Below are positions 1,464-24,841 of a DNA stretch of 49,995 nucleotides, in pieces. Under the pieces are notes generated by a model. That model was given only the letters and a program-made list of their open reading frames with translations, was not told the DNA's origin and did not search any database. The stretch's first letter is position 1; the number at the start of each line of letters is the position of its first letter. The translations under genes and the position numbers were made by a program. Source of the stretch: a phage; the sequence record NC_105507.1; one strand, 5' to 3'.

Positions 1464-1475
1464 CTAGTCACCTCA

Positions 1476-1518
1476 TAGCATTTTTTGTTAAAACAGTTTA
1501 TTGTAATGAGTCTATTAT
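1476..1518 (+). promoter_or_regulatory. TAGCAC-box promoter-like cassette
   Basis: TAGCATTTTTTGTTAAAAC box then TATTAT 22 bp after TTGTTA; upstream of helicase gene. Confidence 0.5.
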
Positions 1519-1550
1519 ATACTCCAAATGGCATTTTTTAAAGGTTTAAG

Positions 1551-3548: not shown

Positions 3549-3967
3549 TGGCTATAACTGATAAAGGAGATTATCTTGAGTTTTACGAAAGAGATCCAAC
3601 CGACACGAGAAAGGAAGTTAATCACCAGATAGATAGCTTTCAGTGGTTGACTTATGCTCATCCTTATTTGCTAGCGTGGCATACGGTAAACGAGAATGAG
3701 AAGTCGAAAGTAACGGCGATGATTGATCAGCAGTCCGGCTTGGTTAAGGGGGTAAGCGATTTCATCATCCTGATTGGTTCAAACGGAAAATACCCCTTTG
3801 CAGCGATTGAGATCAAACGAGTGAATAAATCAGGCAAGGGGAAAGCATCACCAGTCAGCGATGAACAAAAGGCTTTTTTGCGTCGCGTTCGCAGCTTAGG
3901 AGGATTCGCTGCGGTCGCCTACGGATTTAATCAGTTTAAGTTAGCTATTGAATACATGCTTAAATAG
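3548..3967 (+). CDS. VRR-NUC domain nuclease (PD-(D/E)XK)
   Basis: DFIIL...AIEIK...Q pattern typical of VRR-NUC; ATG overlaps helicase stop (TAATG). Confidence 0.65.
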   Translation: MAITDKGDYLEFYERDPTDTRKEVNHQIDSFQWLTYAHPYLLAWHTVNENEKSKVTAMIDQQSGLVKGVSDFIILIGSNGKYPFAAIEIKRVNKSGKGKASPVSDEQKAFLRRVRSLGGFAAVAYGFNQFKLAIEYMLK

Positions 3968-4007
3968 CACTTTTTGTTAAAACTGGCGCGATGGATTGCG
4001 CCATAAT
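3965..4007 (+). promoter_or_regulatory. TAGCAC-box promoter-like cassette
   Basis: exact box TAGCACTTTTTGTTAAAAC, GGCGC/GCGCC hairpin, CATAAT 22 bp after TTGTTA. Confidence 0.55.
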
Positions 4008-4044
4008 TCAATAACACGAGATGGCTTTTAATAGCGGAGAAATG

Positions 4045-4773
4045 AAAATGGCTAAAGATATTTTAGATAAAGACACCCATGACGCATTTGTTAGCTTTGA
4101 GCAGTTGGAGAGAGAAACGTTTATAGGAAATGCTCTTGCAACTGGAGGCCATTACCAGGCAGTAAAGCCAAATCAATATTATAAGGTAAGCGGCAACCGA
4201 TACGCTGGAATCACTACGCCGGACGTTGTGCGCGATATGTGGAGCACACCTCAAGAGATCGTGGAGTGGATGGAATCAGAATTTGGCGAATACGATCTCG
4301 ACGCGGCAGCAAGCCAGGAAAACGCAGTTTGCGAGAAGTTCTATAGCAAGGAAACAAACTGCTTAAAGCGTTGGTGGGGTAGCAACAAGCACGTATGGCT
4401 TAACCCGCCGTACAGCAACCCAACTCCATTTATCAAGAAAGCAATTGAGCAAATGGAGCACAACAACCAAATTGATGTTTTGTTGCCATCCGACAACTCT
4501 ACAGCATGGTTTTATGAGGCGCAGAAAAACGCGGCTGAAATCATCTGGATCACTGGCGAGGTTTACGAAGAGGGGGGAGTGGAATATTCCCGCACCGGAA
4601 GAATCGCCTTTGTGTCTGGATTGACTGGCGAGCCTGTACAGGGCAACAATAAGGGAAGCGTGATTTTTGTCATGCGCAAACTTAAAGAAGGCGAGGAGCA
4701 GAAAACGCGATACGTTAAGATCAGCGATATTTGCCCCTCTGTAACCGAACGCCGCGCGCGCAAACGGAGCTAA
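4045..4773 (+). CDS. dam: DNA N6-adenine methyltransferase (Dam-like)
   Basis: NPPY catalytic motif (WLNPPYSNP); GGAG RBS before ATG 4045 (track ORF starts at ATG 4021). Confidence 0.8.
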   Translation, partial: KMAKDILDKDTHDAFVSFEQLERETFIGNALATGGHYQAVKPNQYYKVSGNRYAGITTPDVVRDMWSTPQEIVEWMESEFGEYDLDAAASQENAVCEKFYSKETNCLKRWWGSNKHVWLNPPYSNPTPFIKKAIEQMEHNNQIDVLLPSDNSTAWFYEAQKNAAEIIWITGEVYEEGGVEYSRTGRIAFVSGLTGEPVQGNNKGSVIFVMRKLKEGEEQKTRYVKISDICPSVTERRARKRS

Positions 4774-4777: not shown

Positions 4778-5035
4778 ATGAAAAAAGAGAGAAGCGTTTA
4801 TTTAAATGAAACTGGCGAGTGGTTGTTATTTCGCGCTATGGTGTGCGATGCACTTGATAAAAACCCTAACGTGAAAAAGATGATTGATTGCGATCCGTGG
4901 GAATTTTCAAGCGCATTAGATATGAGCTTTGATGAGACAAGAAAACTCCCTCTTGAAAAATGGCACGAACAAATCAGAAATGATATGCAAGAGTTTGTAG
5001 ATTCGTGGAATTTTCAGAACGGAATGATCCACTAA
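4778..5035 (+). CDS. hypothetical protein
   Basis: ORF with GGAG RBS, tightly packed after dam. Confidence 0.55.
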   Translation: MKKERSVYLNETGEWLLFRAMVCDALDKNPNVKKMIDCDPWEFSSALDMSFDETRKLPLEKWHEQIRNDMQEFVDSWNFQNGMIH

Positions 5036-5078
5036 TAGCACTTTTTGTTAAAACGCCCGGCATTTTGTCGGGCATAAT
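5036..5078 (+). promoter_or_regulatory. TAGCAC-box promoter-like cassette
   Basis: exact box, hairpin GCCCGGC..GTCGGGC, CATAAT at 22-bp spacing. Confidence 0.55.
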
Positions 5079-5110
5079 TATTTCAACGAAGCAAACATGA
5101 GGAAATAAAA

Positions 5111-5290
5111 ATGGTGGTATTCGATAAACGCGCTTTTAATCTTGCTCAAGAAGTAGCAAAAGGTTCAGTAGAGGGCGGTTCAAAGGAAGGGTTCCAGTTT
5201 GATTGGGGCATCGCAATGTTTTTACTGAAAGTTGCATACGGTCACGCGCCAATTGAACAAGCGGAGGCATATTATAAGCATGAAGGTTGA
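5111..5290 (+). CDS. hypothetical small protein (59 aa)
   Basis: ORF below track cutoff; GAGG RBS 8 nt upstream of ATG; sits downstream of box cassette. Confidence 0.4.
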   Translation: MVVFDKRAFNLAQEVAKGSVEGGSKEGFQFDWGIAMFLLKVAYGHAPIEQAEAYYKHEG

Positions 5291-7995: not shown

Positions 7996-8216
7996 GCGTC
8001 GGGCCACATATGAGTTTCGTTTGTTGGCTTGTTCGATTCGTCGTACTGCCTTACTTCAATGCTGCAAGTGTCGCCATACATTTCTGCAATCTTGCGCTCA
8101 TTTTCAACCGCCGATTGCTCACTCCATCCAAAATCCCTGTCGTAAATTGTCGGTATTTCAGCAGAAGATCCGTTGTCATGATTATATACGCGAACTACTA
8201 AAAACTTGCTGGACAT
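7992..8216 (-). CDS. hypothetical protein
   Basis: ORF downstream of minus-oriented box cassette. Confidence 0.5.
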   Translation of the reverse strand: MSSKFLVVRVYNHDNGSSAEIPTIYDRDFGWSEQSAVENERKIAEMYGDTCSIEVRQYDESNKPTNETHMWPDA

Positions 8217-8252
8217 AATTTTACCTTTTGGTTGTTTCGTTTCTATGAAACA

Positions 8253-8295
8253 AATATACCCGACACTAGGCCGGGCGTTTTAACAAAAAATGCTA
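8253..8295 (-). promoter_or_regulatory. TAGCAC-box promoter-like cassette
   Basis: box variant, hairpin arms identical to the 5055-5072 copy, TATATT at 22-bp spacing. Confidence 0.5.
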
Positions 8296-8487
8296 TTCCA
8301 TACGCTTTACCGTAACCAGTAATACACCATCATCATTGCATAAAACATGTTCAGTGGTGCTAAAAGCGCGCATATCTGAATAAAGTAGCGTAAGTAAAGC
8401 ATGAATAAAATCCTCATGTGATATTGAATTTACGGCGCAGTGCTTCAAGATCTTGTCTATTAGCTTTTGCCTGGAACAATTCATCAT
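8293..8487 (-). CDS. hypothetical protein (doubtful)
   Basis: track ORF overlapping 8414..8809 by 74 nt; an alternative ATGA-coupled 36-aa hydrophobic ORF 8307..8417 exists. Confidence 0.25.
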   Translation of the reverse strand: MMNCSRQKLIDKILKHCAVNSISHEDFIHALLTLLYSDMRAFSTTEHVLCNDDGVLLVTVKRME

Positions 8488-8809
8488 CGCCCATCTCCCC
8501 TATTCTAGCAATATCCCTGATCCAGTCGTTGCGCATACCATCCAGGCTATACAATTCGAATCCGAAAGGCCGCTTTGACGATCCTTTGGACCAGTATTTA
8601 CCGCAGACCCCATCTATATAGCCAGCCGTCATCATTCTTGCGCAAAATTCCTTAGATGCAAGGCTGGCGAACATTCGCGGCGTAAGTCCGGCGGCCCGTG
8701 CGAGCCGCTCACATTCTCTATGCTGATAGATAAATTTGGCTATGTGCTGCCTGTTAAACCAGTCGTATGACTCACACCATTTATACAGATCAAGCAAAAA
8801 CATAATCAT
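8414..8809 (-). CDS. hypothetical protein
   Basis: ORF tightly coupled to upstream 526-aa gene. Confidence 0.55.
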   Translation of the reverse strand: MIMFLLDLYKWCESYDWFNRQHIAKFIYQHRECERLARAAGLTPRMFASLASKEFCARMMTAGYIDGVCGKYWSKGSSKRPFGFELYSLDGMRNDWIRDIARIGEMGDDELFQAKANRQDLEALRRKFNIT

Positions 8810-10386
8810 CCCAGCAGTATTGGATTGACAAAAATAACACCATTAATCACACAAACATAATTTCTTTCTTCCAGCATTGGCAGCAAGTGCCCTTCTATCC
8901 TCTTCATTACGCCAGCCTGACCAACGAAAGGTTTTACCTTTCTCGCTGATTCGTACAGGGCGCGAATATTCAGAATCCCTTTATTAGCCTTGCCGTGTCT
9001 AGTGATCAATTCAATCAATTTGCCCATTTCAGCATCATCACCAGCATAACCAGAAGCATTGGCGGCGCTAATGTATGTTTTGCTCAATTCCTGAAACATG
9101 ATCAACGCCTCTTGCATTGTTTCCACGTCGATCTCTTTCGACTTCTGCGGGTATCCAGCAGGATTAAACCAGTTGCGGATAACATGCAGGACGGAAGCAA
9201 GCCTGATCACCTGTTTATCCATTTTACCCAGCGCACCGCGTAACATTGTATGAGAATACTTTCCGCCGTCTGCAAGATGCGGTTCCATATCCTGGCGAGC
9301 AATGTTGAGCACTCGCATAGCTGAGCGGCTTATTTTCAGCGATATATTTGATTCGCTCATGATGTTATGCACCAATTGATAATATTGGGCCTTCAATTCA
9401 GGATCCACCGCCTCATAGGTAGAATCACCATTTTCATCAATGAATGAGCGACGGCCTAAGAATGATTCCTCACGGACCAACAAAAAGCGCTCACTCACAC
9501 CGATACCGCGCGATCCAGCGTCCATGATTCCGCTTATCGTTTCATCCTGGGCTATAACGCTCATACATCCAAGCGCGCGAAAACTCATGTTATTGTCAGC
9601 ATTAGCACGGGCAATTGATACGTGACCATTATCCCACGCCTTAAGCACTAGCTCGCTGTTAGTCTTCCTTTCGCTATTGGCATAGGTCAAGCCTAACAGG
9701 CTGTTAATACTTGTTGCTTCGTCAGATATTACGGCAAAGTTACCTTGCTTGTTGTTGATTTTCGCCAAGCCTTCTGGAGTTGTATCTGAAACAGGAAAAG
9801 TTATATCACACATTTTTTCCAGCTTTTCCTCCAGATCCTCTTTTTCCTGGTATAGAGATTCCATATCAGCGCCGGATCTTTCGCTTTTCATCTCCTTTGC
9901 AAGACCTGCCAGCTTTGCCTGTATTTTCTTTCTTTCCTTGCGGCGTTGCTCGTTGATCTTCTCAACTTCCGCAATCATCGGAGCAATAGCCATGCTGTTG
10001 ATCGCAGATTTACCAGTTGACGGCGGCTGGCTTGTAACGACGTAAAGCGCAGTCGGCTGATCGGTTCCGTGATAGTCAACCGTAAAGCGTCCAAGCATAG
10101 CGGCAGAAATGCAGCCGATAAAGTGCATGTAAGCCGATGATTCAGGGAATTGAACGGATCGCGCAATGCTGCGTGATAACTTGCCGACAACATCAATATC
10201 ATTACCAAGAGAAATAACGGGGTAGCGATCGTGACCGCTATTCACATCCTTTACGTCGCCCCAAAAGCTGGACGACTGGCGATAGCCGTTAGCCTGAATT
10301 GATACGCGAACTGGCGAAAGGTTCTGGCTTTCAGCCATAGCGATTATTTGTTGTGGAGTTAATTTGTTCGTTTCTAATGAAAACAT
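8806..10386 (-). CDS. P-loop NTPase-like protein (SF3-helicase-like Walker A/B), function unknown
   Basis: PPSTGKS Walker A-like and FAVISDEA Walker B-like segments, coiled-coil insert; AAGGAG RBS. Confidence 0.6.
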   Translation of the reverse strand: MFSLETNKLTPQQIIAMAESQNLSPVRVSIQANGYRQSSSFWGDVKDVNSGHDRYPVISLGNDIDVVGKLSRSIARSVQFPESSAYMHFIGCISAAMLGRFTVDYHGTDQPTALYVVTSQPPSTGKSAINSMAIAPMIAEVEKINEQRRKERKKIQAKLAGLAKEMKSERSGADMESLYQEKEDLEEKLEKMCDITFPVSDTTPEGLAKINNKQGNFAVISDEATSINSLLGLTYANSERKTNSELVLKAWDNGHVSIARANADNNMSFRALGCMSVIAQDETISGIMDAGSRGIGVSERFLLVREESFLGRRSFIDENGDSTYEAVDPELKAQYYQLVHNIMSESNISLKISRSAMRVLNIARQDMEPHLADGGKYSHTMLRGALGKMDKQVIRLASVLHVIRNWFNPAGYPQKSKEIDVETMQEALIMFQELSKTYISAANASGYAGDDAEMGKLIELITRHGKANKGILNIRALYESARKVKPFVGQAGVMKRIEGHLLPMLEERNYVCVINGVIFVNPILLG

Positions 10387-10414
10387 TCGTTAGCTTCTCC
10401 TTTGTGGGCCGTAA

Positions 10415-10457
10415 ATTTTAACGGCCCAATACTACCCCGTTTTGTCAAAAAGTGCTA
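10415..10457 (-). promoter_or_regulatory. TAGCAC-box promoter-like cassette
   Basis: box variant containing TTGACA; TAAAAT in loop of GGGCCGT/ACGGCCC hairpin at 22-bp spacing. Confidence 0.55.
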
Positions 10458-10676
10458 TTTGATCCGCTCTATTGCAACCAGAAGTCGATCAGGCTGGCGG
10501 TCGCTGTAGCATTCTCCTGTAATCCCATCCTTAAACGTAAAGTAAAGCGCCTTATGATATGAAAAACCAATCAGCCAACCTACCGCCGTTTTTTTGATGG
10601 GCCTGACTATATCGCCAGGATTGAAAGTCTTTGTGGTAGAATGCGTTACTTTGTAACGGTTTTCACTGTTTATCAC
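10455..10676 (-). CDS. hypothetical protein
   Basis: ORF in leftward early cluster. Confidence 0.5.
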   Translation of the reverse strand: MINSENRYKVTHSTTKTFNPGDIVRPIKKTAVGWLIGFSYHKALYFTFKDGITGECYSDRQPDRLLVAIERIK

Positions 10677-11059
10677 AGATATTTGCCCTCAAACAGATAA
10701 CAGCCGCCAGCAGAGAATCCGACCTCTTCACGGTACAGGTTCCAGCGGTCGCCGCACTCATCAAAAACATAACCCGCAACGCTTCCAAGCGGTCGCCCTT
10801 TCTCGATCTGGTATCGCTTGCCCTGCTTAAAGTGCTTTTTACACGGCATGTTATGATCTACAAACGTGCAAAGAACGGTCTTTGTGTTAATGGCGCGGTA
10901 ATCATCTCTGTTTGCTGGAAGCCAACGGCTACCCTTAACAAGCGTCTTAACCTGGAACTCTTCCAACTCGATCACATCATTACTTCCTGCAATCTTCTGA
11001 TAAACCGTTTTAAAACGGCCTTTCATCAATACGTTGGTTTCATTACAGATAACATTCAT
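10673..11059 (-). CDS. hypothetical protein
   Basis: ORF with GGAG RBS downstream of box cassette. Confidence 0.55.
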   Translation of the reverse strand: MNVICNETNVLMKGRFKTVYQKIAGSNDVIELEEFQVKTLVKGSRWLPANRDDYRAINTKTVLCTFVDHNMPCKKHFKQGKRYQIEKGRPLGSVAGYVFDECGDRWNLYREEVGFSAGGCYLFEGKYL

Positions 11060-11088
11060 GATTAGATCTCCTTTGTTTGTTCGATGTG

Positions 11089-11131
11089 ATTATGCCAGGT
11101 TTTTACACCTGGCTTTTAACAAAAAGTGCTA
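11089..11131 (-). promoter_or_regulatory. TAGCAC-box promoter-like cassette
   Basis: box, GCCAGG/CCTGGC hairpin, CATAAT. Confidence 0.55.
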
Positions 11132-11837
11132 TTTTGAGTTTGACTCAAATACGGCGCGAGCAAATCCGCGCGGAGTGAGGGAGCGGATCATCTTTGTGCG
11201 TGATGAATTGCCGCCAGTTTTGGCCCAGCCTGGATTATCTTTGTCTTTCTCTTTCGGCAGGATTAAAGCACGTGGAGGAATAACAAAGCCGTTGCCAGTC
11301 CAGAGGCATGTTTTCTTAAAGTAGCGATCCCGCGCCGGAATAATATCAGGGAAGTCGGGATGTTTATCATCTTCCGGCAGATAGCCAGCGTAATCGCACG
11401 GATGGAACGTATAATCAGGTTTTCGCCATAACGTTGACAACTTGCCAACCGGATTTTCGATCATGTAAGGAACACCGAAATAATCAGCTATATCAGCCGC
11501 GATTCTGCAAGTGTCGGCGGCCTCATCCTGGAACGATGGATTCTCAAGGCGTTTTTTGGCCCAATGGCGAGATCCGCTATTTGCAAGGTCGGTGCAAGGA
11601 GGGAACGCCATAATAAAATCAGGATTGCCCCACTCATTATTGATTGCCTTAACATAAAAAGCATCATCAATCCAGACGTTAACGTATTCGATATTCTCAT
11701 GCTGTATGCGCACTGACTGGTAATCACCGTGATCGCCGCCGTCAGCATTAAAGCAAATGCACTTATATCCATTATCAGCCCAATCTTTAACGGCTTTACC
11801 AGATCCATCAAATAGGGAGAATATTAAACCTTTATAC
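11129..11837 (-). CDS. SAM-dependent DNA methyltransferase-like protein (cytosine-5 type motifs)
   Basis: FSLFDGSG (motif I-like), FPPC (PC dipeptide), ENP (ENV-like); start set to second ATG after GAGG. Confidence 0.45.
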
Positions 11838-11849
11838 ATCGTCATTACC

Positions 11850-12074
11850 TCAAAACGGAAAACAGCGCGGACAACCAGGATCGAAATCGCATCCACAATC
11901 ATTAACAATCATAGTGGGATCTGCAAATATTGCGCTTGATTCAAGATCCATATCCATATCACCTAAAGCCTCATCAAGACTCTTAATTTTATATGCCACT
12001 TCAAGCGCCGCCTCTTTATTTAGTCCGGCATCTTCTGCCATTTGAAGGCGCTCAAAAAATCCGTCTTGACTCAT
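11850..12074 (-). CDS. acidic small protein with C-terminal Cys cluster
   Basis: D/E-rich 74-aa ORF ending CGCDFDPGCPRC. Confidence 0.5.
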   Translation of the reverse strand: MSQDGFFERLQMAEDAGLNKEAALEVAYKIKSLDEALGDMDMDLESSAIFADPTMIVNDCGCDFDPGCPRCFPF

Positions 12075-12187
12075 CGCATAATCCCCTTAATAACAGCCAA
12101 GATAATAGCCAGGCCAGCAGCAGTAACCAAAAAGCCAACCGCGCCAATAATCGAATAAAAAAAGAAATCAATAGCCTTATCTATCAT
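12071..12187 (-). CDS. small hydrophobic membrane peptide (38 aa)
   Basis: below track cutoff; ATGA stop-start overlap with downstream gene. Confidence 0.35.
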   Translation of the reverse strand: MIDKAIDFFFYSIIGAVGFLVTAAGLAIILAVIKGIMR

Positions 12188-12228
12188 TTCCACCTCATTT
12201 AAAAGGCGGCAAAACGCCGCCATATTAA

Positions 12229-12456
12229 TTAAAGAGCACGCCAACTTTGAATATAGAAAGCGTTTTCTTCCAGTAATTCTTTTAACTGATCTCTATTGTA
12301 TTTGCGCACCTTACCGCCTGGATGGATACCAATAAGATAGCCGCCTTTGCCCTCGGTGATAGTGATTTGGCTAATTCCGCAAGACTTATCAAGTTTTACA
12401 GCCACGCGGTGATGAGCGTCAATAGTTGCCATAATGTTTAAAACTTTTGCTTTCAT
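12229..12456 (-). CDS. hypothetical protein
   Basis: ORF in leftward early cluster. Confidence 0.5.
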   Translation of the reverse strand: MKAKVLNIMATIDAHHRVAVKLDKSCGISQITITEGKGGYLIGIHPGGKVRKYNRDQLKELLEENAFYIQSWRAL

Positions 12457-12564
12457 TTAAATATCCTCAATTGAAATATGAATGGCGCCGTGCTCTTTTT
12501 CCGTCGCCGCCGTAATGGTCATTTGCAGCCGATACCATCCAGGCATTTTTGAAAATAAATAGCC

Positions 12565-12777
12565 TCATTTCTTATTTTTCATCTTAAATTTATGGCCTGG
12601 AACACCAGCACCAATATAGCCATCGTTGTATTCCATTAAATAAAGGTGAAGGCCATTATCTGAAATTACATGAGGATCTTCTTTGAGATTTCCCATTAGC
12701 GGGTATTCTTTTCCGCGCGTAAATCTCCAATTTGAGTTATAAGTTTCTACGCATTTAAGTTTTAATTGCTTTGCCAT
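12565..12777 (-). CDS. hypothetical protein
   Basis: ORF in leftward early cluster. Confidence 0.5.
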   Translation of the reverse strand: MAKQLKLKCVETYNSNWRFTRGKEYPLMGNLKEDPHVISDNGLHLYLMEYNDGYIGAGVPGHKFKMKNKK

Positions 12778-12974
12778 TAGATGATCTCCATGTATGTTTC
12801 AAAGCCATTTAACTTGAACAGGCCGTTTTCACATTTGCGAACGTTCCAAGTTAGCCCTGAGTGGTACGCCTCCATATCATCAAGGTCAATGGTGATTTCA
12901 GCACCTTTCTTAAACAAACATTTTTCGTGAGACTTGTCGCGCTTAACAACTTTAACATCAACCTGATTTTCCAT
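12777..12974 (-). CDS. hypothetical protein
   Basis: start moved to ATG 12974 with GAGGA RBS; track GTG start at 13025 would overlap the box cassette. Confidence 0.5.
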   Translation of the reverse strand: MENQVDVKVVKRDKSHEKCLFKKGAEITIDLDDMEAYHSGLTWNVRKCENGLFKLNGFETYMEII

Positions 12975-13005
12975 CTTTAAATCCTCGCTTGTTGTCGATG
13001 GGTGT

Positions 13006-13048
13006 AATATACCATTCAGGCGCACATCGTTTTTAACAAAAAGTGCTA
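13006..13048 (-). promoter_or_regulatory. TAGCAC-box promoter-like cassette
   Basis: box (TTGTTAAAAAC variant), TATATT at 22-bp spacing. Confidence 0.5.
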
Positions 13049-13049
13049 T

Positions 13050-13313
13050 TTAGTCCAGAAATTCGATTTCACGCTCTCCAGTTAACGGATCTACAAGCCA
13101 GAATCCTAGCGGTTCGCCGTGAACACCGCCATAGAATCCAAGAGCCGTCAGATCTTCACCTTTAACGAATACCAGGTTTCCGCTACGGCTTACGTGAGAC
13201 ACGTTAACGATAACCGGAAATGTGCGATCCTTAAATGCAGGCCGCAGGGCGTAACATCCGTTGTTGAGCAAACGTGCTTTGCGCTTAACTGGAATAGGTG
13301 CATTAATTTTCAT
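13050..13313 (-). CDS. hypothetical protein
   Basis: ORF in leftward early cluster. Confidence 0.55.
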   Translation of the reverse strand: MKINAPIPVKRKARLLNNGCYALRPAFKDRTFPVIVNVSHVSRSGNLVFVKGEDLTALGFYGGVHGEPLGFWLVDPLTGEREIEFLD

Positions 13314-13325
13314 GGTTATTACTCC

Positions 13326-13538
13326 TTATCGTAAAGATTTAAAGACGTATAGTTTATTGCGGTAACTATATATCCGCATTGTTATTTCTCGCAGCGCAAT
13401 ATATTCCTTCCTGTTTTCCGGCAGACTGGCGAGCAACAACAGGCAGTATTTATAAGCGCGGTCAAGATTCCTTTCCGTGCCCCTGCAATATCCCTTGTTG
13501 CGCCTGGAGCGGCACAGCCATAACAATTTCTTGAACAT
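13326..13538 (-). CDS. hypothetical basic Cys-containing protein (doubtful)
   Basis: shorter version of track ORF 13326..13724; ATG 1 nt after upstream stop. Confidence 0.3.
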   Translation of the reverse strand: MFKKLLWLCRSRRNKGYCRGTERNLDRAYKYCLLLLASLPENRKEYIALREITMRIYSYRNKLYVFKSLR

Positions 13539-13539
13539 T

Positions 13540-13749
13540 TCAGATCCGCCCATACAGATCGCAAACTTCGTTGATAAAACAGCGTTGAGACTCTTTATCC
13601 TGCTTCTCAAACATCGCACGGCACTCATAGCGGTGATTATGCACGATGACAACAACCATATTTTCAGGCGCTGACGGGTGACGCGCGGAAGCGTCGCAGA
13701 TTGAAACATCCATACCCATCTCACGGGCTTTCTTGATCACATCCAACAT
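13540..13749 (-). CDS. hypothetical protein
   Basis: first ATG with AGGAG RBS; track ORF begins at TTG 13773. Confidence 0.45.
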   Translation of the reverse strand: MLDVIKKAREMGMDVSICDASARHPSAPENMVVVIVHNHRYECRAMFEKQDKESQRCFINEVCDLYGRI

Positions 13750-14003
13750 TTTTTCTTCTCCTGCAATAAGCAAACATCATTGATAAAATCAGCACGGCCC
13801 TTAATGTTGCTGATGTGGAACGTCTTTTCAGCGTACAGGCCATCACCTTCAATCACGATCATTACGCGAGTCGGTTTATTCACGGGCGCACGAGAAAAGA
13901 GTGGTCGCACCGGAAGAAATTTAGTCATCACATCAAGGTTAGCCCTGGCGGCCCTGCAAAACGCCTCCGCCAGATCCAAATCATTTTCGGTAATCACCGC
14001 CAT
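13737..14003 (-). CDS. hypothetical protein
   Basis: ORF in leftward early cluster. Confidence 0.5.
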   Translation of the reverse strand: MAVITENDLDLAEAFCRAARANLDVMTKFLPVRPLFSRAPVNKPTRVMIVIEGDGLYAEKTFHISNIKGRADFINDVCLLQEKKKCWM

Positions 14004-14275
14004 TACTTCTTAATCTCCTTACTGATAAATTTCAGCACCTGGCGCAAGAAAACCTCGTTGTTGATAGTCGCTGGCAATTCTTCTTTCACTTCTTGCGGCA
14101 GATAGATATTGCCGTGCCAGGTCAAGCAATCGTAGTTGATACGATAAGAGCAAAGCCACTCGCAATCGTTATCTGCTTCCCATATGCAGAGTTGCAGAAC
14201 ATCGCCAAAATCTTCAACAGTCAGATCCAGACCGTGACGCTTAGCGAAATTGAAAGTGGTTTTGCTGATGTTCAT
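14003..14275 (-). CDS. hypothetical protein (first gene of leftward early operon)
   Basis: AGGAG RBS; directly downstream of box cassette. Confidence 0.55.
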   Translation of the reverse strand: MNISKTTFNFAKRHGLDLTVEDFGDVLQLCIWEADNDCEWLCSYRINYDCLTWHGNIYLPQEVKEELPATINNEVFLRQVLKFISKEIKK

Positions 14276-14310
14276 TTACTATCTCCTGAGCGGTTCGTTT
14301 CGATGTGTGT

Positions 14311-14353
14311 AATGTACCCGATCAGGCGGCCTGAGTTTTAACAAAAAGCGCTA
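14311..14353 (-). promoter_or_regulatory. TAGCAC-box promoter-like cassette (leftward early)
   Basis: box variant TAGCGC, TCAGG/CCTGA hairpin, TACATT at 22-bp spacing. Confidence 0.5.
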
Positions 14354-14383
14354 TTTGACGGTTAGCACCAGGATTGTGATCGA

Positions 14384-15430: not shown

Positions 15431-15702
15431 TGAAAAAGGCATTAATCAGCGTTTTGGCGGCAATGGCATTCCTGACCGGATGCAAAGAAAATGGCGCGCA
15501 TGTTGGCAATGTGCAGATGGCTAACCCTGGTGATGACTACAGCGTAAGGGAGCTATTCACCGCTGACGGTTGCACCGTTTACCGATTCTATGACGATCGC
15601 ACTGTTTACTTCACCAACTGCAAGGGCACTACTAGCCGGGAAGTGTCGAAAAGCAATGGCAAAGGCACGAAGACAGAACATATGACCGTCGAGACAAAAT
15701 AG
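15430..15702 (+). CDS. lipoprotein (candidate superinfection-exclusion/receptor-blocking)
   Basis: signal peptide with lipobox LTGC (MKKALISVLAAMAFLTGC); TAATG overlap with upstream gene. Confidence 0.7.
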   Translation: MKKALISVLAAMAFLTGCKENGAHVGNVQMANPGDDYSVRELFTADGCTVYRFYDDRTVYFTNCKGTTSREVSKSNGKGTKTEHMTVETK

Positions 15703-15742
15703 CACTTTTTGTTAAAACTCAAAAACGATAATCAGGCATAAT
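15700..15742 (+). promoter_or_regulatory. TAGCAC-box promoter-like cassette
   Basis: exact box overlapping TAG stop; CATAAT at 22-bp spacing. Confidence 0.5.
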
Positions 15743-16142: not shown

Positions 16143-16715
16143 ATGTTAAAACTTGCTGACATTAAATTCCCGATCACCTTCCGCACGACTGGTGAGTCAA
16201 CGATTCGCTACACATCGCGCGAAAATGGCGTTTATAGCGATGGTACGAAATCATGGTTGAAAGTTGATTTCTTTGTCAACGGTCACAATAGACACAATCC
16301 GCACAACGAAGAGGATAAAGTGTACTACGTGGAAGACATTACAAAACACTTATTTGGAGAAACTCCATTCGGCGGCGGTAAGACGTCAATTCAAAAAATC
16401 ATTGGCGATGAGATCCACAAAGCGGCTACCGAAATGAAAGCGCCTGGAGGCTGGCGTATTGACAAGAGCGCATTTGCAAATCAAGAAATCGTAACGCAGG
16501 GCGCAATTGAAGATATGCCAGTTGCAGCCACTCTAAAAGGAGTCCGGCTTGATGACGGCACCTGGTATGAAGTAACGGCCACACCAAAGACGATCGAGAT
16601 TCATGATGACGTTGTTATCCTTCTGCTTCACTACGGCGGCTATAAAAACCGGACGATTGCAGGTGAGATCAGCATTAAGCGCGGAACGATGGTTAAGTGG
16701 AAGGTCAAAGTGTAA
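16143..16715 (+). CDS. hypothetical protein
   Basis: AGGAG RBS; 190-aa ORF. Confidence 0.6.
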   Translation: MLKLADIKFPITFRTTGESTIRYTSRENGVYSDGTKSWLKVDFFVNGHNRHNPHNEEDKVYYVEDITKHLFGETPFGGGKTSIQKIIGDEIHKAATEMKAPGGWRIDKSAFANQEIVTQGAIEDMPVAATLKGVRLDDGTWYEVTATPKTIEIHDDVVILLLHYGGYKNRTIAGEISIKRGTMVKWKVKV

Positions 16716-16716
16716 A

Positions 16717-16758
16717 TAGCACTTTTTGTTAAAACTCAAATGTGGGGCCAGGTATAAT
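16717..16758 (+). promoter_or_regulatory. TAGCAC-box promoter-like cassette
   Basis: exact box; TATAAT in loop of GGGCC/GGCCC hairpin (21-bp spacing). Confidence 0.55.
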
Positions 16759-16788
16759 GGCCCTACTTTCAACGAAGGAGATAAAACG

Positions 16789-17019
16789 ATGTACATTAAA
16801 AAGAAGATGAAATGCGTTTCCGTTAACTATGCTTGCTCTGGCATGTTCAAGCCTGGCGAAATCTATACGGCGCAAAAACTGAAATCATCAACCGGATCTT
16901 TTTACGTGAGCAATAGTAAGGGGCATCGCATGTTCCTGAACGGCGGCGAAGGCACTAAGGTTATGGCACACGCTATGGTAATGGCTGAATTTGAGGAAGT
17001 GAAAGATGAAAACAAATAA
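16789..17019 (+). CDS. hypothetical protein
   Basis: AAGGAG RBS before ATG 16789. Confidence 0.5.
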   Translation: MYIKKKMKCVSVNYACSGMFKPGEIYTAQKLKSSTGSFYVSNSKGHRMFLNGGEGTKVMAHAMVMAEFEEVKDENK

Positions 17020-17238: not shown

Positions 17239-17949
17239 ATGAAAAAATACACTTTCGAACTATGGGGCAAGAAGTACGAATTAATCACCAGCAAGCCGAT
17301 TGTTATCGTTGACCTGGACGGCACACTATCGGACGGATCGCATCGTTTGCATTTGCTGCCAACTGAAAACTTACACCTTACGGAATCGTGGAGCGAATTT
17401 AACAGGGCCGCCGCCGGAGATTCACCGATTAAAAGCACGATCGCGGTTATTAACGGTTTGTGGGTGTCGGGATTTGCCATCGTCATCTTGACCGGACGCA
17501 GCGACGAGGTGCGCTATGAAACCTGCAAATGGTTGAATGAGAGCGGCGTGAAGTTTGACGAAATCATCATGCGCCGCCAGGAGGACAACCGAAAGGATAC
17601 GGTTATTAAAGAAGAAGCCTTGCGCGCTATTGGCCTGGACAACATTGTTTGCGCCTTTGACGATTCGCCGAACGTGGTTAAGCACTTCCGCAGCTTGGGG
17701 ATCACAACCTATCAGGTCACGGAATACGACAAGCCACACGCTCACATACAATCTCACGGCGTGGAATCAATAAAGATCACGAAGCGCGCCCGATTCGTCG
17801 ACAGCAAAGACAGCATGGTTAATGCCAGCTTTATCAAAGGCAAGGTTTATGATGTTCATAGCCATGATAAAAACCGATTCTTTTTGTGGGATGAAAAAGG
17901 TTTTGGCTGGTGCTTTGAACACGACGACGGCGATTTTGTTAATGCGTAA
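17239..17949 (+). CDS. HAD-superfamily phosphatase (nucleotidase / polynucleotide 3'-phosphatase-like)
   Basis: DLDGT motif I, LTGRS motif II, FDDS motif IV. Confidence 0.75.
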   Translation: MKKYTFELWGKKYELITSKPIVIVDLDGTLSDGSHRLHLLPTENLHLTESWSEFNRAAAGDSPIKSTIAVINGLWVSGFAIVILTGRSDEVRYETCKWLNESGVKFDEIIMRRQEDNRKDTVIKEEALRAIGLDNIVCAFDDSPNVVKHFRSLGITTYQVTEYDKPHAHIQSHGVESIKITKRARFVDSKDSMVNASFIKGKVYDVHSHDKNRFFLWDEKGFGWCFEHDDGDFVNA

Positions 17950-17992
17950 TAGCACTTTTTGTTAAAACATCTTAACGGGCTTGCGGTATAGT
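17950..17992 (+). promoter_or_regulatory. TAGCAC-box promoter-like cassette
   Basis: exact box after TAA stop; TATAGT in loop of GGGCTT/AAGCCC hairpin at 22-bp spacing. Confidence 0.55.
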
Positions 17993-18023
17993 AAGCCCAT
18001 CAACAACAAGCGAGGATTAAATC

Positions 18024-18287
18024 ATGGCTAACAAGATCGAATTTTTCAAAGCGGTAGACATTATTGATGGTGCTCCTAGCTTCTTTGCCATCCATTCCAT
18101 TGACGGCAAGGATATTGGGTACAACGTTATCCGTCGAGATGGAATCTCAAAACTTAGCGATCTGGTAGGGCATATTGTGTCAAACGGGAAGTGCGCATGG
18201 CCCGATTCGCCACGAGAGCCACGCCGCCTCGACATGGTAGAGCCTGTTCTGCTTTACACTCTGGTAGTAGAAGGAGAAAATAAATGA
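18024..18287 (+). CDS. hypothetical protein
   Basis: GAGG RBS. Confidence 0.5.
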   Translation: MANKIEFFKAVDIIDGAPSFFAIHSIDGKDIGYNVIRRDGISKLSDLVGHIVSNGKCAWPDSPREPRRLDMVEPVLLYTLVVEGENK

Positions 18288-18678: not shown

Positions 18679-19269
18679 ATGAAGCGAGACATTATCATCC
18701 TTAATGGGCCGCCAGGTTGCGGGAAGGACACTATTGCAGCTTACCTAACGGGCCATCGTTACCCAGCGGTTAAGGCGTCATTCAAACAGCCGATGTTCGA
18801 TATTGCGTTTTCCATGCTTGGCCCGACTCGATATGATGAGTTTATTGACCTGTACAACGACCGAGAGCAAAAAGAAAAGCCTCAAGTTATCTTAGGCGGC
18901 AAGTCACCTCGACAATTCATGATCTGGATTAGCGAGGATGTAATGAAGCCAGTCTTTGGGGAGCAGTATTTCGGGCGTCGAATGGTTGAAGAGATTAACG
19001 AGATGTACCGAGATTTGACGGTTGTGATCAGTGATGGCGGATTCCCCGAAGAAATCAAGCCGCTTGTTAAGGCAGGGCATGAAGTGCATATTTGCCGATT
19101 GCATCGCGACGGCTTCACGTTTGCTGGCGATTCGAGAGACTACATTGACCTGAGCGGTTATCACTATCGAATCCATCACTATGACTTCCACTTGCAGGAC
19201 GGCAAGCCGGAACTGGCTGTAAACGAGATCGTCAATGCTGTCAAATGGAAGCACACACAGATTAAATAG
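18679..19269 (+). CDS. P-loop nucleotide kinase (dNMP kinase-like)
   Basis: P-loop GPPGCGKDT resembling the GKDT loop of phage dNMP kinases; GGAG RBS. Confidence 0.7.
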   Translation: MKRDIIILNGPPGCGKDTIAAYLTGHRYPAVKASFKQPMFDIAFSMLGPTRYDEFIDLYNDREQKEKPQVILGGKSPRQFMIWISEDVMKPVFGEQYFGRRMVEEINEMYRDLTVVISDGGFPEEIKPLVKAGHEVHICRLHRDGFTFAGDSRDYIDLSGYHYRIHHYDFHLQDGKPELAVNEIVNAVKWKHTQIK

Positions 19270-19309
19270 CACTAATTGCTAAACGCGGGGCGCAATGCCT
19301 CGCTATAAT
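19267..19309 (+). promoter_or_regulatory. TAGCAC-box promoter-like cassette (variant)
   Basis: TAGCACTAATTGCTAAAC, imperfect hairpin, TATAAT at 22-bp spacing. Confidence 0.5.
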
Positions 19310-19339
19310 GCAAACACCAATCAACGAGAGGAAACAATC

Positions 19340-19741
19340 ATGGTGGAGTTAAACGACATTCGCGTTGGAACAAAATTTCGCGTAACCTGGGCAGATAAAT
19401 ATTGTGGCGTTAGCAAGGGCCAGGTTGTTGCGGTGGATAGTATTTATCGTGGTGTTAGTGGTGACTTTCGCCGTCCGCGCATCAATAATGGCTATATTAT
19501 TACTCGCCGTATTGGCTTTGATAATTATTGCGTAGTGGCGACTCAAGGAGTTTTGATTGAGCTTAAGAGAATCAGCGATCATCGCGGTCGTCATGTTAAG
19601 GCAATGAAAACACCATTTCAGCGAGCGAGATACGATGCGCGACGTATGCGCCGACTTGCGCGAAATGCGATCAAGTTCAAAAAGCCTGGCGATGATTTTT
19701 ACGGCATGTATAAGGGGATTGCGCGCAATGCTGGGAAATAA
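19340..19741 (+). CDS. hypothetical protein
   Basis: GAGG RBS before ATG 19340 (track ORF from 19295). Confidence 0.5.
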   Translation: MVELNDIRVGTKFRVTWADKYCGVSKGQVVAVDSIYRGVSGDFRRPRINNGYIITRRIGFDNYCVVATQGVLIELKRISDHRGRHVKAMKTPFQRARYDARRMRRLARNAIKFKKPGDDFYGMYKGIARNAGK

Positions 19742-20289: not shown

Positions 20290-20580
20290 ATGGCAAACAA
20301 AACTTACCGCAAACTACTGGTTAACGCTTTTGAAAACATCGCGCAGTGTAACAAGTGGAACGACTCTAAACACTCGCCAGTCACAATGAAGCGCGCTGGA
20401 TTCAAAAATGCTCGTTCATGGGCGAGAGCTTTCGCATCTTGCTATATGCCGGATGGCGGATTAGGGGTGATGAACGATTTTTTGATCAACATGATAGAGC
20501 AAGCGGCGCGAGAGGATCGACCGCTGACACAGCGAGATTTTGACGACTTCGCGCGCGATGAGCTTTACTATCTGAGCTAA
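20290..20580 (+). CDS. hypothetical protein
   Basis: AAGGGG RBS. Confidence 0.5.
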   Translation: MANKTYRKLLVNAFENIAQCNKWNDSKHSPVTMKRAGFKNARSWARAFASCYMPDGGLGVMNDFLINMIEQAAREDRPLTQRDFDDFARDELYYLS

Positions 20581-20623
20581 TAGCACTTTTTGTTAAAACT
20601 TCCGCAAGGGCATTTGGTAAAGT
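20581..20623 (+). promoter_or_regulatory. TAGCAC-box promoter-like cassette
   Basis: exact box right after TAA stop; TAAAGT in loop of AAGGGCA/TGCCCTT hairpin. Confidence 0.5.
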
Positions 20624-20655
20624 GCCCTTATTGAAGCGAAACAGAGGAAAGCGCA

Positions 20656-20868
20656 ATGAAAATCAAAATCACCAAAATCGACACTATCAACGGCGACGGA
20701 TCAATCACTCTTGAGCAATGTGGCTTGGTTGTTGGTGATGTGCTGGAAGTTGACGGACATTTCAGCGACGGATCTTATTGTGTTATTGCGCCGCGCAACA
20801 GCGAGTTTATCAAGGCTGGCGACAATATTAGTGTTAACCATGACGAATGCGAGGTAGTAGAAGAATGA
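20656..20868 (+). CDS. hypothetical acidic protein
   Basis: GAGGAAA RBS. Confidence 0.5.
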   Translation: MKIKITKIDTINGDGSITLEQCGLVVGDVLEVDGHFSDGSYCVIAPRNSEFIKAGDNISVNHDECEVVEE

Positions 20869-24771: not shown

Positions 24772-24788
24772 CACTAATTGCTAAAAAG
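24769..24788 (+). repeat. degenerate TAGCAC box copy
   Basis: TAGCACTAATTGCTAAAAAG overlapping terminase stop; no -10 at canonical spacing. Confidence 0.4.
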
Positions 24789-24800
24789 TTATATAATCAA

Positions 24801-24830: not shown

Positions 24831-24841
24831 GAGATTTGACG

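What the first reader, a model, noticed from the sequence alone, without database searches (positions are those of the whole stretch)
8253..14353. Leftward early cluster is punctuated by box cassettes that share hairpins with copies elsewhere
Five minus-oriented box copies (near 8295, 10457, 11131, 13048, 14353) each precede one to three small genes. The hairpin arms after the 8277-8295 copy (GCCCGGC..GTCGGG) are identical to those after the plus-strand copy at 5036-5054, and the 10439-10457 copy carries TTGACA in place of TTGTTA. Box, hairpin and -10 therefore travel together as a unit, reminiscent of the promoter-plus-stem-loop cassettes described as shuffling points in T4-type phages.
Basis: partly seen in the sequence, partly recalled or inferred. 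Interest (0 to 1): 0.7.

Follow-up and report, generated by a model that had tools for sequence, protein, structure and literature searches.

The report
Portable promoter–hairpin cassettes in T1-like phage
The early genes of this T1-like coliphage are separated by about 80-base cassettes (a conserved 20-base box, a variable hairpin, a -10 promoter element and a leader); the same cassettes sit in front of unrelated genes and are one of several places where relatives gain and lose genes, much like the promoter–stem-loop cassettes of T4-type phages.

Summary
The window is a Warwickvirus (Drexlerviridae, T1-like) genome with 18 copies of AATAGCACTTTTTGTTAAAA (0.01 expected by chance). Five lie on the minus strand at the stated coordinates.

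The box is already published. A 2024 paper on phage TLS reports 18 intergenic 21-nt repeats, aaATAGCACnnnTTGnTAAAA, with unknown function.

What I add:
- **Fixed promoter geometry across the family.** Box, a 20-nt gap, G at -14, (T/C)ATAAT, then a CA start. TTGnTA lies 22 bp from the -10, so it is not a normal -35. The box core TAGCA-N5-TGCTA is a pseudo-palindrome centred near -42.
- **Real, covarying hairpins.** They sit in the spacer or around the -10. They occur mainly where an upstream gene reads into the cassette, which points to an RNA-level attenuator or insulator.
- **Portability.** One cassette family precedes seven unrelated genes.
- **Recombination at cassettes.** Close relatives differ by box-to-box module indels, and the window's 13031 cassette is a recombinant chimera.

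Ordinary gene junctions break about as often (12/42 against 6/17). Cassettes are therefore one shuffling substrate, not the only one. What reads the box is unresolved.

Verdict: a PeSL-like system with an unconventional promoter, a new variant of a known kind.

The parts
14273..14355 (-). Cassette 5, head of the leftward cluster. Box 14336-14355 (ATAGCGC variant), -10 TACATT 14311-14316, start codon 14273-14275. No significant hairpin.
   Evidence: (z=+0.21). No upstream co-directional ORF, so this is a 'head' cassette.
12972..13050 (-). Cassette 4. Box 13031-13050, TGG+TATATT 13006-13011, start codon 12972-12974. The spacer is chimeric and the hairpin degenerate. Site of box-to-box module indels in relatives.
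   Evidence: The 5' spacer half is 78% identical to the FritzSarasin cassette after gene X. The 3' part is 88% identical to its gene-Y cassette.
11057..11133 (-). Cassette 3. Box 11114-11133, spacer hairpin CCAGGT/ACCTGG 11094-11113 (class A), TGG+CATAAT 11089-11094, start codon 11057-11059.
   Evidence: (MFE -14.0, z=-4.2). JK16 is identical through the -10 and then carries a different gene plus an HNH endonuclease.
10384..10459 (-). Cassette 2, upstream of the 526-aa helicase. Box 10440-10459 (TTGACA variant). Hairpin GGGCCGT/ACGGCCC 10405-10428 encloses the -10 TAAAAT 10415-10420 (class B). Start codon 10384-10386.
   Evidence: MFE -15.6, z=-3.15. The orthologous cassettes in 22 loci carry 15 different stems, all complementary.
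8214..8297 (-). Cassette 1. Box 8278-8297, spacer hairpin GCCCGGC/GTCGGGT 8258-8276 followed by ATATTTGTTT (terminator-like), -10 TATATT 8253-8258, start codon 8214-8216.
   Evidence: listed as terminator-like; same cassette family as 5034+.
5034..5113 (+). Plus-strand paralogue of cassette 1. Box 5034-5053, hairpin 5055-5073, -10 CATAAT 5073-5078, start codon 5111-5113.
   Evidence: The T1 orthologue's hairpin is annotated as a rho-independent terminator (T1 39998-40024).
1474..1553 (+). Cassette for the replicative helicase. Its box lies 11 nt from the start codon of the divergent Cro-like regulator gene. No hairpin (head cassette).
   Evidence: The same arrangement occurs in T1 (box 36444+) and TLS (box 35843+).
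3963..4050 (+). Cassette before the Dam methylase. Box 3963-3982, spacer hairpin 3984-4003, -10 CATAAT 4002-4007.
   Evidence: The T1 orthologue's hairpin is annotated as a terminator (38973-39001).
15698..15742 (+). Cassette with box 15698-15717 and -10 CATAAT 15737-15742, no hairpin. Relatives carry an extra box-flanked module here, or diverge immediately after the -10.
16715..16791 (+). Cassette with box 16715-16734. Hairpin 16742-16766 encloses the -10 TATAAT 16753-16758. Indel boundary at the 5' edge of the box. ExeQuayColi has the same promoter part joined to a different gene.
17948..18026 (+). Cassette with box 17948-17967. Hairpin GGGCTTG/..AAGCCC 17977-17998 encloses the -10 TATAGT 17987-17992. 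FritzSarasin has this cassette duplicated around an extra gene.
19265..19342 (+). Cassette with the box variant AATAGCACTAATTGCTAAAC, spacer hairpin 19285-19303, -10 TATAAT 19304-19309.
20579..20658 (+). Cassette of the AAGGGCA..TGCCCTT hairpin family. Hairpin 20599-20636, -10 TAAAGT 20618-20623.
   Evidence: covariation
43877..43948 (-). Box cassette in the late or tail region that drives a minus-strand 91-aa ORF.
24767..24838 (+). Box with no -10 at the fixed offset. It is followed by a strong terminator hairpin with a T run (about 24790-24830) and then the 432-aa ORF.
29393..29412 (-). Box antisense to the late genes. Its position is conserved in T1 (15086-) and TLS (15042-).
33151..33170 (-). 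Box antisense to the late genes, facing a bidirectional-looking terminator. Its position is conserved in T1 (18850-).
987..1463 (-). Cro-type HTH 'transcriptional regulator' (158 aa). This is the candidate, unproven reader of the box.

Best explanation
Each cassette is a compact transcription punctuation unit of Drexlerviridae.

**(1) Promoter (inferred from geometry).** The 20-nt box occupies about -51 to -32. It usually contains the stop codon of the upstream gene. Exactly 20 nt after the ATAGCACnnnTTGnTAAA core come a conserved G at -14 (often TG, an extended -10) and a (T/C)ATAAT hexamer. Seven nt further on lies a conserved C-A start, then a CA-rich leader of about 25 nt, GGAG and ATG. 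Because TTGnTA is 22 bp from the -10, there is no usable -35. The box therefore acts as an upstream recognition element. Its core TAGCA-N5-TG(C/T)TA is a pseudo-palindrome centred near -42, the position of class II activators. Candidates are the phage's Cro-type regulator, or RNA polymerase alpha/sigma domains.

**(2) Hairpin (structure shown, function inferred).** A GC-rich hairpin of cassette-specific sequence lies in the spacer (class A, often followed by a U-rich tract) or straddles the -10 (class B). It forms in sense RNA that reads through from the upstream gene. It attenuates or terminates that RNA and/or stabilises its 3' end, so each module is insulated and restarted.

**(3) Recombination substrate (shown by comparison).** The box and the conserved -10 and leader are repeated about 18 times per genome. 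They therefore serve as short homologies for recombination. The outcomes are box-to-box gain or loss of [hairpin/-10/leader/gene(s)] modules, promoter-kept gene swaps, chimeric cassettes, and the spread of one cassette type to unrelated genes.
For: **Known repeat.** PMC11447400 describes the same repeat in TLS and leaves its function open.

**Geometry.**
- The -10-like hexamer lies 20 nt after the 18-mer in 47 of 59 copies of the window, T1 and TLS, and 19-21 nt after it in 53 of 59.
- A logo from 553 distinct cassettes in 56 loci shows G(-14) 83%, A(-11) 88%, T(-7) 89%, C(-1) 72% and A(+1) 78%, with an SD about 13-17 nt downstream of the start.

**Orientation and context.**
- The box-to-ATG distance is 73-81 nt and the box is co-directional with the gene.
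- Canonical sigma70 sites are not enriched in the region: 29 found against 33 expected. One perfect consensus site lies at 14910-14937.

**Hairpins.**
- Mean z is -2.5 (p=2.6e-14 against random segments).
- Self arms beat chimeric arms in 0 of 10000 permutations.
- In one family the inner helix is 100% paired in 26 sequences, and 5 of 9 pairs show double changes. The covariation score is 0.409 against 0.151 for shuffles (0 of 500), and slid registers give 0.116 or less. G-U pairs are used.
- The orthologous helicase cassette has 15 distinct complementary stems in 22 loci.
- Hairpins at -10 kcal/mol or lower occur in 80% of 325 cassettes that follow a co-directional ORF, against 31% of 99 'head' cassettes (p=9e-11).
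- T1's record annotates four cassette hairpins as terminators. The scan flags 5055-5073 and 8276-8258 as terminator-like.

**Shuffling.**
Against: - There are no experimental 5' or 3' ends, so the start site, promoter activity and termination are all inferred.
- Class B hairpins lack a U tract and would be poor intrinsic terminators.
- Several boxes have no -10 at the fixed offset (window 24767+; T1 8362+ and 25021+; TLS 24908+), or lie antisense in the late region. The box therefore has some role beyond these promoters, or these copies are relics.
- The recognition helix of the Cro-like regulator differs between the window, T1 and TLS (SQQVVNQ / SNQTVQG / NLKTVWG), although the box is invariant.
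- Per junction, cassettes are not hit more often than other gene junctions (Fisher p=0.42).
- Many of the loci used for statistics are related, so those p-values overstate independence.
Confidence: 0.7

Rival explanations
1. The box is chiefly an operator for negative control (a stoperator or early shut-off site). A phage repressor, for example the Cro-like protein, binds the roughly 18 boxes to block initiation or elongation at the early-to-late switch. The promoters would otherwise run on host RNA polymerase alone.
For: - The TLS authors suggest stoperators.
- The boxes are oriented with transcription and some lie where no -10 follows.
- The pseudo-palindromic core fits a dimeric HTH protein.
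- A Cro-type regulator is a core gene in 848 records.
- A box abuts the regulator's own start codon in three subfamilies.
Against: - Without a -35, something must still recruit polymerase, and the box is the only conserved upstream element.
- A fixed 20-nt register to the -10 in about 85% of copies fits a promoter element better than a roadblock.
- These are virulent phages with no lysogenic repressor.
- The regulator's recognition helix is not conserved.
Confidence: 0.15
2. The hairpin acts at the DNA level as part of the promoter. An extruded stem-loop or cruciform presents the -10 in single-stranded form and so speeds open-complex formation.
For: - In 39 of 59 cassettes the arms flank the -10, so the hexamer sits in the loop.
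- The structure is conserved by covariation.
Against: - Hairpins are largely absent from head-of-operon cassettes that have the same box and -10 (31% against 80%).
- Class A hairpins do not include the -10.
- G-U (G-T) pairs are tolerated, and these would be A-C mismatches on the other strand.
- Stem length and position vary.
- By general knowledge, cruciforms over sigma70 promoters usually inhibit transcription.
Confidence: 0.08
3. Box plus hairpin is an RNA signal on polycistronic transcripts. It could be a processing site or a nut-like antitermination site (conserved box followed by a stem-loop) read by a phage protein.
For: - The box is transcribed as the 3' end of the upstream gene and is followed by a conserved-structure hairpin.
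- Some boxes lack a -10 and sit directly before a start codon.
- No Rfam family matches, so a new RNA element is not excluded.
Against: - It does not explain the -10 hexamer, G-14 and CA start at fixed distances.
- Hairpin loops and stems are not conserved in sequence, unlike boxB.
- Head cassettes with no upstream transcription keep the box.
Confidence: 0.07

Closest known systems
The 21-nt intergenic direct repeats of phage TLS and other T1-like phages (PMC11447400, 2024)
   Same: It is the same sequence, aaATAGCACnnnTTGnTAAAA. There are about 18 intergenic copies, oriented with transcription, about 76 nt upstream of start codons. The TTT, GAA and AAA subtypes are also seen here.
   Different: That paper treats the repeat alone and leaves its function open (stoperator, enhancer site or UP element). 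As far as I read it, it does not describe the fixed-distance -10 with G-14 and CA start, the dyad at about -42, the hairpins, or the link to indels.
PeSL (promoter-early stem-loop) cassettes of T4-type phages (Arbiol et al. 2010, PMC2839356; Comeau et al. 2014, PMC4122927)
   Same: - Intergenic composite of about 80-100 nt holding the upstream gene's stop codon, a promoter, a GC-rich stem-loop (with G-T pairs) placed between the upstream element and the -10 or over the -10, then SD and ATG.
- Concentrated among small genes of unknown function.
- Indels between close relatives end in the cassettes and leave chimeric cassettes.
   Different: - PeSL promoters match the sigma70 consensus, with a -35 at normal spacing and an AT-rich UP region. 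Here there is no -35. A 20-nt sequence-specific box lies 22 bp from the -10.
- The host family is different (siphovirus Drexlerviridae).
- Promoter activity, terminator activity and mini-circles are untested here.
- Cassettes are not over-used relative to other junctions in my sample.
Class II activator-dependent, extended -10 promoters (galP1 with CRP at -41.5; lambda PRM with cI at about -42; lambda PRE with CII). Recalled from general knowledge.
   Same: No functional -35, a TGn/G-14 extended -10, and a dyad-symmetric protein site centred about -42.
   Different: No activator has been shown to bind. The start site is inferred. The box is strongly asymmetric outside its 5-bp arms.
T4 middle promoters (MotA box plus sigma70 -10, sigma appropriation). 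Recalled from general knowledge.
   Same: A phage-specific upstream box replaces the -35. The box contains TGCT, and many promoters have an extended -10.
   Different: The MotA box is centred at about -30, some 12 bp from the -10. Here the TGCTA is 22 bp away. No MotA or AsiA homologue was seen.

Membership tests
Drexlerviridae 21-nt direct repeat (TLS 'DR') | Consensus aaATAGCACnnnTTGnTAAAA | tested here: met
   17 copies at 3 mismatches or fewer, plus 1 at 4. The logo from 553 cassettes matches.
Drexlerviridae 21-nt direct repeat (TLS 'DR') | Intergenic, in the direction of transcription, about 76 nt upstream of the start codon | tested here: met
   Box-to-ATG distance is 73-81 nt for the early cassettes. 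Exceptions are 24767+ and the antisense copies 29393- and 33151-.
PeSL cassettes (T4-type phages) | Sigma70-consensus early promoter (-35 and -10 at canonical spacing) | tested here: not met
   A -10 is present, but TTGnTA lies 22 bp upstream and the hexamer at 17 bp reads AAAACn. The consensus scan does not pick up the cassettes.
PeSL cassettes (T4-type phages) | Stable stem-loop inside the cassette, between the upstream element and the -10 or overlapping the -10 | tested here: met
   15 class A and 39 class B of 59 cassettes, mean z -2.5. Covariation.
PeSL cassettes (T4-type phages) | Upstream stop codon inside the element; SD and start codon at its 3' end | tested here: met
   TAA or TAG within or abutting the box in most copies. 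SD signal in the logo.
PeSL cassettes (T4-type phages) | Indel or replacement endpoints between close relatives fall in the cassettes; chimeric cassettes result | tested here: met
   Box-to-box module indels at 13031-, 15698+ and 17948+. Breaks after the -10 at 11114- and 15698+. Chimera at 13031-. Not exclusive: 6/17 cassette junctions against 12/42 other junctions.
PeSL cassettes (T4-type phages) | Demonstrated promoter and terminator activity; mini-circle formation | not testable with these tools
   Needs reporter assays, RNA end mapping and PCR on infected cells.
Class II activator-dependent promoter | Activator site centred about -41.5 and overlapping the -35 region | tested here: inconclusive
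   The dyad TAGCA-N5-TGCTA is centred at -42 if the start is the conserved A 7 nt after the hexamer. The start is not measured.
Class II activator-dependent promoter | A cognate activator binds the site and contacts RNA polymerase | not testable with these tools
   The candidate Cro-type regulator is conserved, but its recognition helix varies.
Sigma54 promoter | TGGCAC-N5-TTGC with GG and GC 12 nt apart | tested here: not met
   The box is TAGCAC-N3-TTGC, with AG in place of GG and a spacing 2 nt shorter. The conserved -10 and start lie far downstream.

The most novel reading that the evidence does not exclude
Nearly the whole early and middle transcription programme of Drexlerviridae may run on a so far uncharacterised promoter class. 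This class would combine an extended -10 with a 20-nt box centred at -42 that is read by a conserved phage factor. The Cro-like core protein is a candidate, perhaps through its invariant N-terminal arm. A single activator or switch protein would then gate about 18 promoters. The -10-embracing RNA hairpins would insulate each module, and the same cassettes would drive gene-module exchange across the family.
Probability: 0.3. Interest if true: 0.7.

Novelty: new variant of a known kind. Interest (0 to 1): 0.55.

Why it matters
[quoted passage not shown] The analysis here turns that question into a concrete, testable model.

- **Promoter model.** The repeat is the upstream element of a promoter with fixed geometry and a predicted start site. 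It carries a dyad at the class II activator position.
- **Hairpin model.** An attached hairpin behaves like an RNA-level insulator.
- **Evolution.** PeSL-type modular exchange is not confined to T4-like myoviruses. It also operates in a widespread siphovirus family, with more than 800 genomes in the collection searched.
- **Practical uses.** The result bears on annotating transcription units, on choosing safe insertion points when engineering T1-like therapeutic phages, and on understanding how accessory and anti-defence genes move. One gene directly behind a cassette matches the 'antiviral trigger Gp54' family.

Tried and rejected
- **TTGTTA as a -35.** The spacer is 22 bp in essentially all copies, and no -10-like hexamer lies 16-18 bp downstream.
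- **Sigma54 promoter.** There is a resemblance (TAGCAC-N3-TTGC), but the spacing and GG are wrong and the conserved -10 and start lie elsewhere.
- **UP element proper.** The T and A tracts lie about 9-10 bp too far downstream, and the central triplet may be GAA.
- **IHF, Fis, CRP and DnaA consensus sequences.** By eye there is no convincing match. This rests on recalled consensus sequences and is not a formal test.
- **Known RNA families.** Rfam gives no match in the whole window.
- **Literature on the exact box, T1 promoters or transcriptomes.** I found only the TLS paper. Roberts et al. 2004 (the T1 genome paper) is not held.
- **Co-occurrence of regulator and box.** This is uninformative, because the regulator is a core gene of the whole family.
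- **Reader among immediate-early proteins.** Pfam and PHROGs on ten early proteins gave only domains of unknown function.
- **Enrichment of breakpoints at cassettes relative to other gene junctions.** Not significant.
- **MAFFT alignment of the helicase-cassette orthologues.** It put the stems out of register. I therefore analysed the arms by script and ran formal covariation on a gap-free family instead.

Full report
**Identity of the window.** The region 8000-14500 is 97-98% identical to Escherichia phages Phunderstruck, JLBYU01, tonn, swan01 and others. These are classified as Drexlerviridae; Tempevirinae; Warwickvirus. The window is therefore essentially a T1-like genome. It holds a leftward cluster (7990-14355, minus strand) and a rightward cluster (from about 14900, plus strand) of mostly small genes of unknown function. 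It also holds a replication and lysis block (1474-7977) and the late genes.

**Check of the observation.**
- AATAGCACTTTTTGTTAAAA occurs 17 times at 3 mismatches or fewer, against 0.01 expected. An 18th copy has 4 mismatches.
- The arms CGCCCGGC/GTCGGG are identical at 8278- and 5034+, and the 10440 copy has TTGACA.
- The statement that each copy precedes one to three small genes is inaccurate. The modules hold about 5, 6, 2, 3 and 1 genes and include the 526-aa helicase and the Dcm methylase.
- Two of the five copies have no significant hairpin.

**Prior knowledge.** The box has been described. The 2024 reannotation of phage TLS reports 18 intergenic 21-nt direct repeats, aaATAGCACnnnTTGnTAAAA. 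They point in the direction of transcription, about 76 nt upstream of start codons, and are also seen in T1, Rtp and Rogue1. The authors found only three sigma70-like intergenic promoters. They list the repeat's function as an open question (stoperator, enhancer site or UP element). Further searches found nothing on its function or on T1-like transcript mapping.

**Anatomy.**
- In the window, T1 and TLS a -10-like hexamer lies exactly 20 nt after the 18-mer core in 47 of 59 copies, and 19-21 nt after it in 53 of 59.
- A logo from 553 distinct cassettes in 56 loci spanning the family (helicase identity 63-100%) reads: aA-ATAGCAC-(T/G)WW-TTG-(C/T)-TAAA-a-c, then about 16 variable nt, then G (83%) at -14, one nt, (T/C)ATAAT, five nt, C (72%) and A (78%). 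A CA-rich leader, GGAG and ATG follow.
- The conserved CA lies 7 nt after the hexamer, which is what a transcription start looks like.
- With that start, the box spans about -51 to -32 and TTGnTA lies 22 bp from the -10. This is too far for a sigma70 -35, and the hexamer at 17 bp is AAAACn.
- The conserved G-14 (often TG) is the extended -10 signature.
- The box core TAGCA-N5-TG(C/T)TA is a pseudo-palindrome whose centre falls at -42, the class II activator position. This last point depends on the inferred start.

**Hairpins.**
- The 46 nt after the box fold much better than shuffles (mean z -2.5). They also fold better than random genomic segments: 68% against 16% at -10 kcal/mol or lower, p=2.6e-14.
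- Fifteen cassettes have the stem inside the spacer, abutting the -10 (class A). Thirty-nine have arms flanking the -10 (class B).
- Arms are cassette-specific. Swapping 3' halves between cassettes loses 3-5 kcal/mol, and 0 of 10000 permutations reach the observed value in each genome.
- The orthologous cassette before the helicase shows 15 different but complementary stems in 22 loci, for example GTTGCCC/GGGCAAC, GTTGGCC/GGCCAAC and GTTGACC/GGTCAAC.
- In a gap-free family of 26 sequences the 9-bp inner helix is 100% paired, with double changes at 5 pairs. The covariation score is 0.409 against 0.151 for shuffles (0 of 500) and 0.116 or less for slid registers. G-U pairs are used, which points to the sense strand as RNA.
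- Strong hairpins occur in 80% of 325 cassettes that directly follow a co-directional ORF. They occur in only 31% of 99 cassettes at the head of a transcription unit (p=9e-11; the loci are related, so this p-value is optimistic).
- The hairpin is therefore not needed by the promoter itself. It acts on RNA arriving from upstream.
- Class A hairpins followed by TATATTTGTTT-type tails are scored as terminator-like. Four such hairpins are annotated as rho-independent terminators in the T1 record.
- Class B hairpins lack a U tract. Attenuation, pausing or 3'-end protection is the most I can infer for them.

**Portability.**
- Clustering the 37 nt after the box gives cassette families. The AAGGNCA..TGNCCTT family has seven members in the window (20579+), T1 (3535+, 4864+, 47117-) and TLS (1929+, 5136+, 6478+). 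None of the 21 downstream protein pairs is homologous.
- The family containing 5034+ and 8278- has four members, with only one orthologous pair.
- Across the 56 loci there are 888 cassette pairs (358 distinct after clustering) in which spacer and -10 are at least 80% identical while both flanks are unrelated.

**Breakpoints in relatives.** I compared the window with eight annotated Warwickvirus genomes and three IMG/VR contigs.
- **At 13031-.** ExeQuayColi, tiwna, Sip and B1.2 carry an extra two-gene module, and FritzSarasin and SECphi27 carry a different one. In each case the module is bounded on both sides by a box, and the only shared sequence at the junctions is the box. The window's single cassette there is a chimera. 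Its 5' spacer half matches the FritzSarasin cassette that follows gene X (78% against 39%). Its 3' part matches the gene-Y cassette (88% against 51%). Its arms no longer pair.
- **At 15698+.** ExeQuayColi and FritzSarasin have an extra box-flanked module. JLBYU01 and FritzSarasin diverge from the window immediately after the -10.
- **At 16715+.** An insertion ends at the 5' edge of the box. ExeQuayColi has the same box, hairpin and -10 joined to a different gene, with the break just before the SD.
- **At 17948+.** FritzSarasin has the cassette duplicated around an extra gene, and B1.2 has an insertion ending at the box edge.
- **At 11114-.** JK16 is identical through the -10. It then carries a shorter, partly homologous gene plus an HNH endonuclease.

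**Quantification.** In FritzSarasin coordinates there are 32 boundary clusters.
- Five lie within 4 nt of a box, which covers 1.7% of the sequence (p=2e-4).
- Eight lie in cassettes, which cover 5.6% of the sequence (p=3e-4).
- Twelve lie at ordinary gene junctions, typically with 8-21 bp of microhomology.
- Twelve lie elsewhere.
- Per junction, 6 of 17 cassette junctions and 12 of 42 other junctions are hit (Fisher p=0.42).

Cassettes are thus genuine recombination points with the PeSL signature. They are one class among several, and I cannot show that they are hotter than other junctions.

**Who reads the box?** This is unresolved.
- The family's 'transcriptional regulator' (987-1463, minus) has a Cro-type HTH, with weak matches to YdaS and P22 Cro models and to Cro structures 5w8y, 3bd1 and 1rzs.
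- It is a core gene in 848 phage records.
- Its start codon lies 11-13 nt from a box on the other strand in the window, T1 and TLS. That geometry suggests autoregulation.
- However, its predicted recognition helix differs between the three phages while the box is invariant. An invariant reader, such as host RNA polymerase domains or the regulator's strictly conserved N-terminal segment, is at least as likely.
- A perfect TTGACA-16-TATAAT promoter at 14910-14937 could be the factor-independent entry point of the rightward cluster.

**Comparison with known systems.** The element is the TLS-type repeat, so membership there is met. Functionally and anatomically it is closest to PeSL cassettes. It fails their defining sigma70-consensus promoter feature, and promoter activity, terminator activity and mini-circles cannot be tested here. 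The promoter architecture resembles class II or extended -10 promoters and, more loosely, T4 middle promoters. These last comparisons rest on general knowledge.

**Verdict.** This is a new variant of a known kind, of moderate interest. It gives a concrete answer, testable by RNA end mapping and in vitro transcription, to a question that specialists have explicitly left open.

Noticed in passing
window 14910-14937 (+), within the divergent control region 14356-14935: A perfect sigma70 consensus promoter (TTGACA-16-TATAAT, 12/12) lies just upstream of the first rightward ORF (14936-15430, DUF7174). The surrounding 580-bp non-coding region is AT-rich, with several short direct and inverted repeats, and is a replacement hot spot in relatives (break at 14722).
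   Followed up: partly
window 29393-29412 (-) and 33151-33170 (-); T1 (L009) 15086- and 18850-; TLS (L010) 15042-: Box copies lie antisense to the late structural genes at conserved intergenic positions (before the major capsid gene, and after the major tail gene). They have only weak -10 hexamers. The 33151 copy faces a strong GC hairpin about 45 nt away, so it could make a short antisense RNA.
   Followed up: no
window 24767-24838 (+); T1 8362+ and 25021+; TLS 24908+: These boxes have no -10 at the fixed offset. In the window the box is followed by a strong terminator (GGCTGG..CCAGCC plus a T run) and then the 432-aa ORF. In T1 and TLS diverged boxes sit 4-16 nt before late-gene start codons. 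These do not fit the promoter model.
   Followed up: partly
window 12777-12974 (-): The 65-aa gene directly behind the 13031 cassette matches Pfam PF25180 'Phage antiviral trigger protein Gp54' (E=1e-37). This suggests that defence-related accessory genes sit in the cassette-bounded modules.
   Followed up: no
window 987-1463 (-) and 1464-1550: The Cro-type regulator has a strictly conserved basic N-terminal segment (STGEIDKRxINGNNGxRRGKDxKxR). A possible leftward promoter (TTGGAG-16-TACAAT) overlaps the helicase cassette, so a protein bound at box 1474 would sit on the regulator's own leader.
   Followed up: partly
window 12205-12221 (both strands) and 7965-7987 (both strands): Two canonical bidirectional intrinsic terminators lie outside any cassette. 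One is inside the leftward cluster, after the 12229-12456 gene. The other is at the convergence of the lysis genes and the leftward cluster.
   Followed up: no
L006 (JK16) 10662-11374, against window 10665-11067: JK16 carries an HNH endonuclease (EndY) next to a shortened homologue (50% identity to the C-terminal half) of the window's 128-aa protein. Homing-endonuclease insertion is a second, cassette-independent source of indels. T1 and TLS also carry several HNH genes next to boxes.
   Followed up: partly
L008 (vB_Eco-B1.2) about 12175-12252, against window 11173-11247: A tandem duplication of about 75 bp lies inside the 3' part of the Dcm methylase gene in one relative.
   Followed up: no
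all cassettes, +1 to about +25 (for example window 12975-12999 and 14276-14304, minus strand): The leader after the predicted start is itself conserved and CA-rich (CATCGAAACGAA / CATCAACAACAAG before GGAG). It may act as an unstructured translation enhancer, or as a second homology patch for recombination.
   Followed up: no
and host tallies: Twenty records labelled 'Campylobacter phage' (host C. jejuni) match this E. coli-type Drexlerviridae sequence at both DNA and protein level. This looks like mislabelling or contamination in the database.
   Followed up: no
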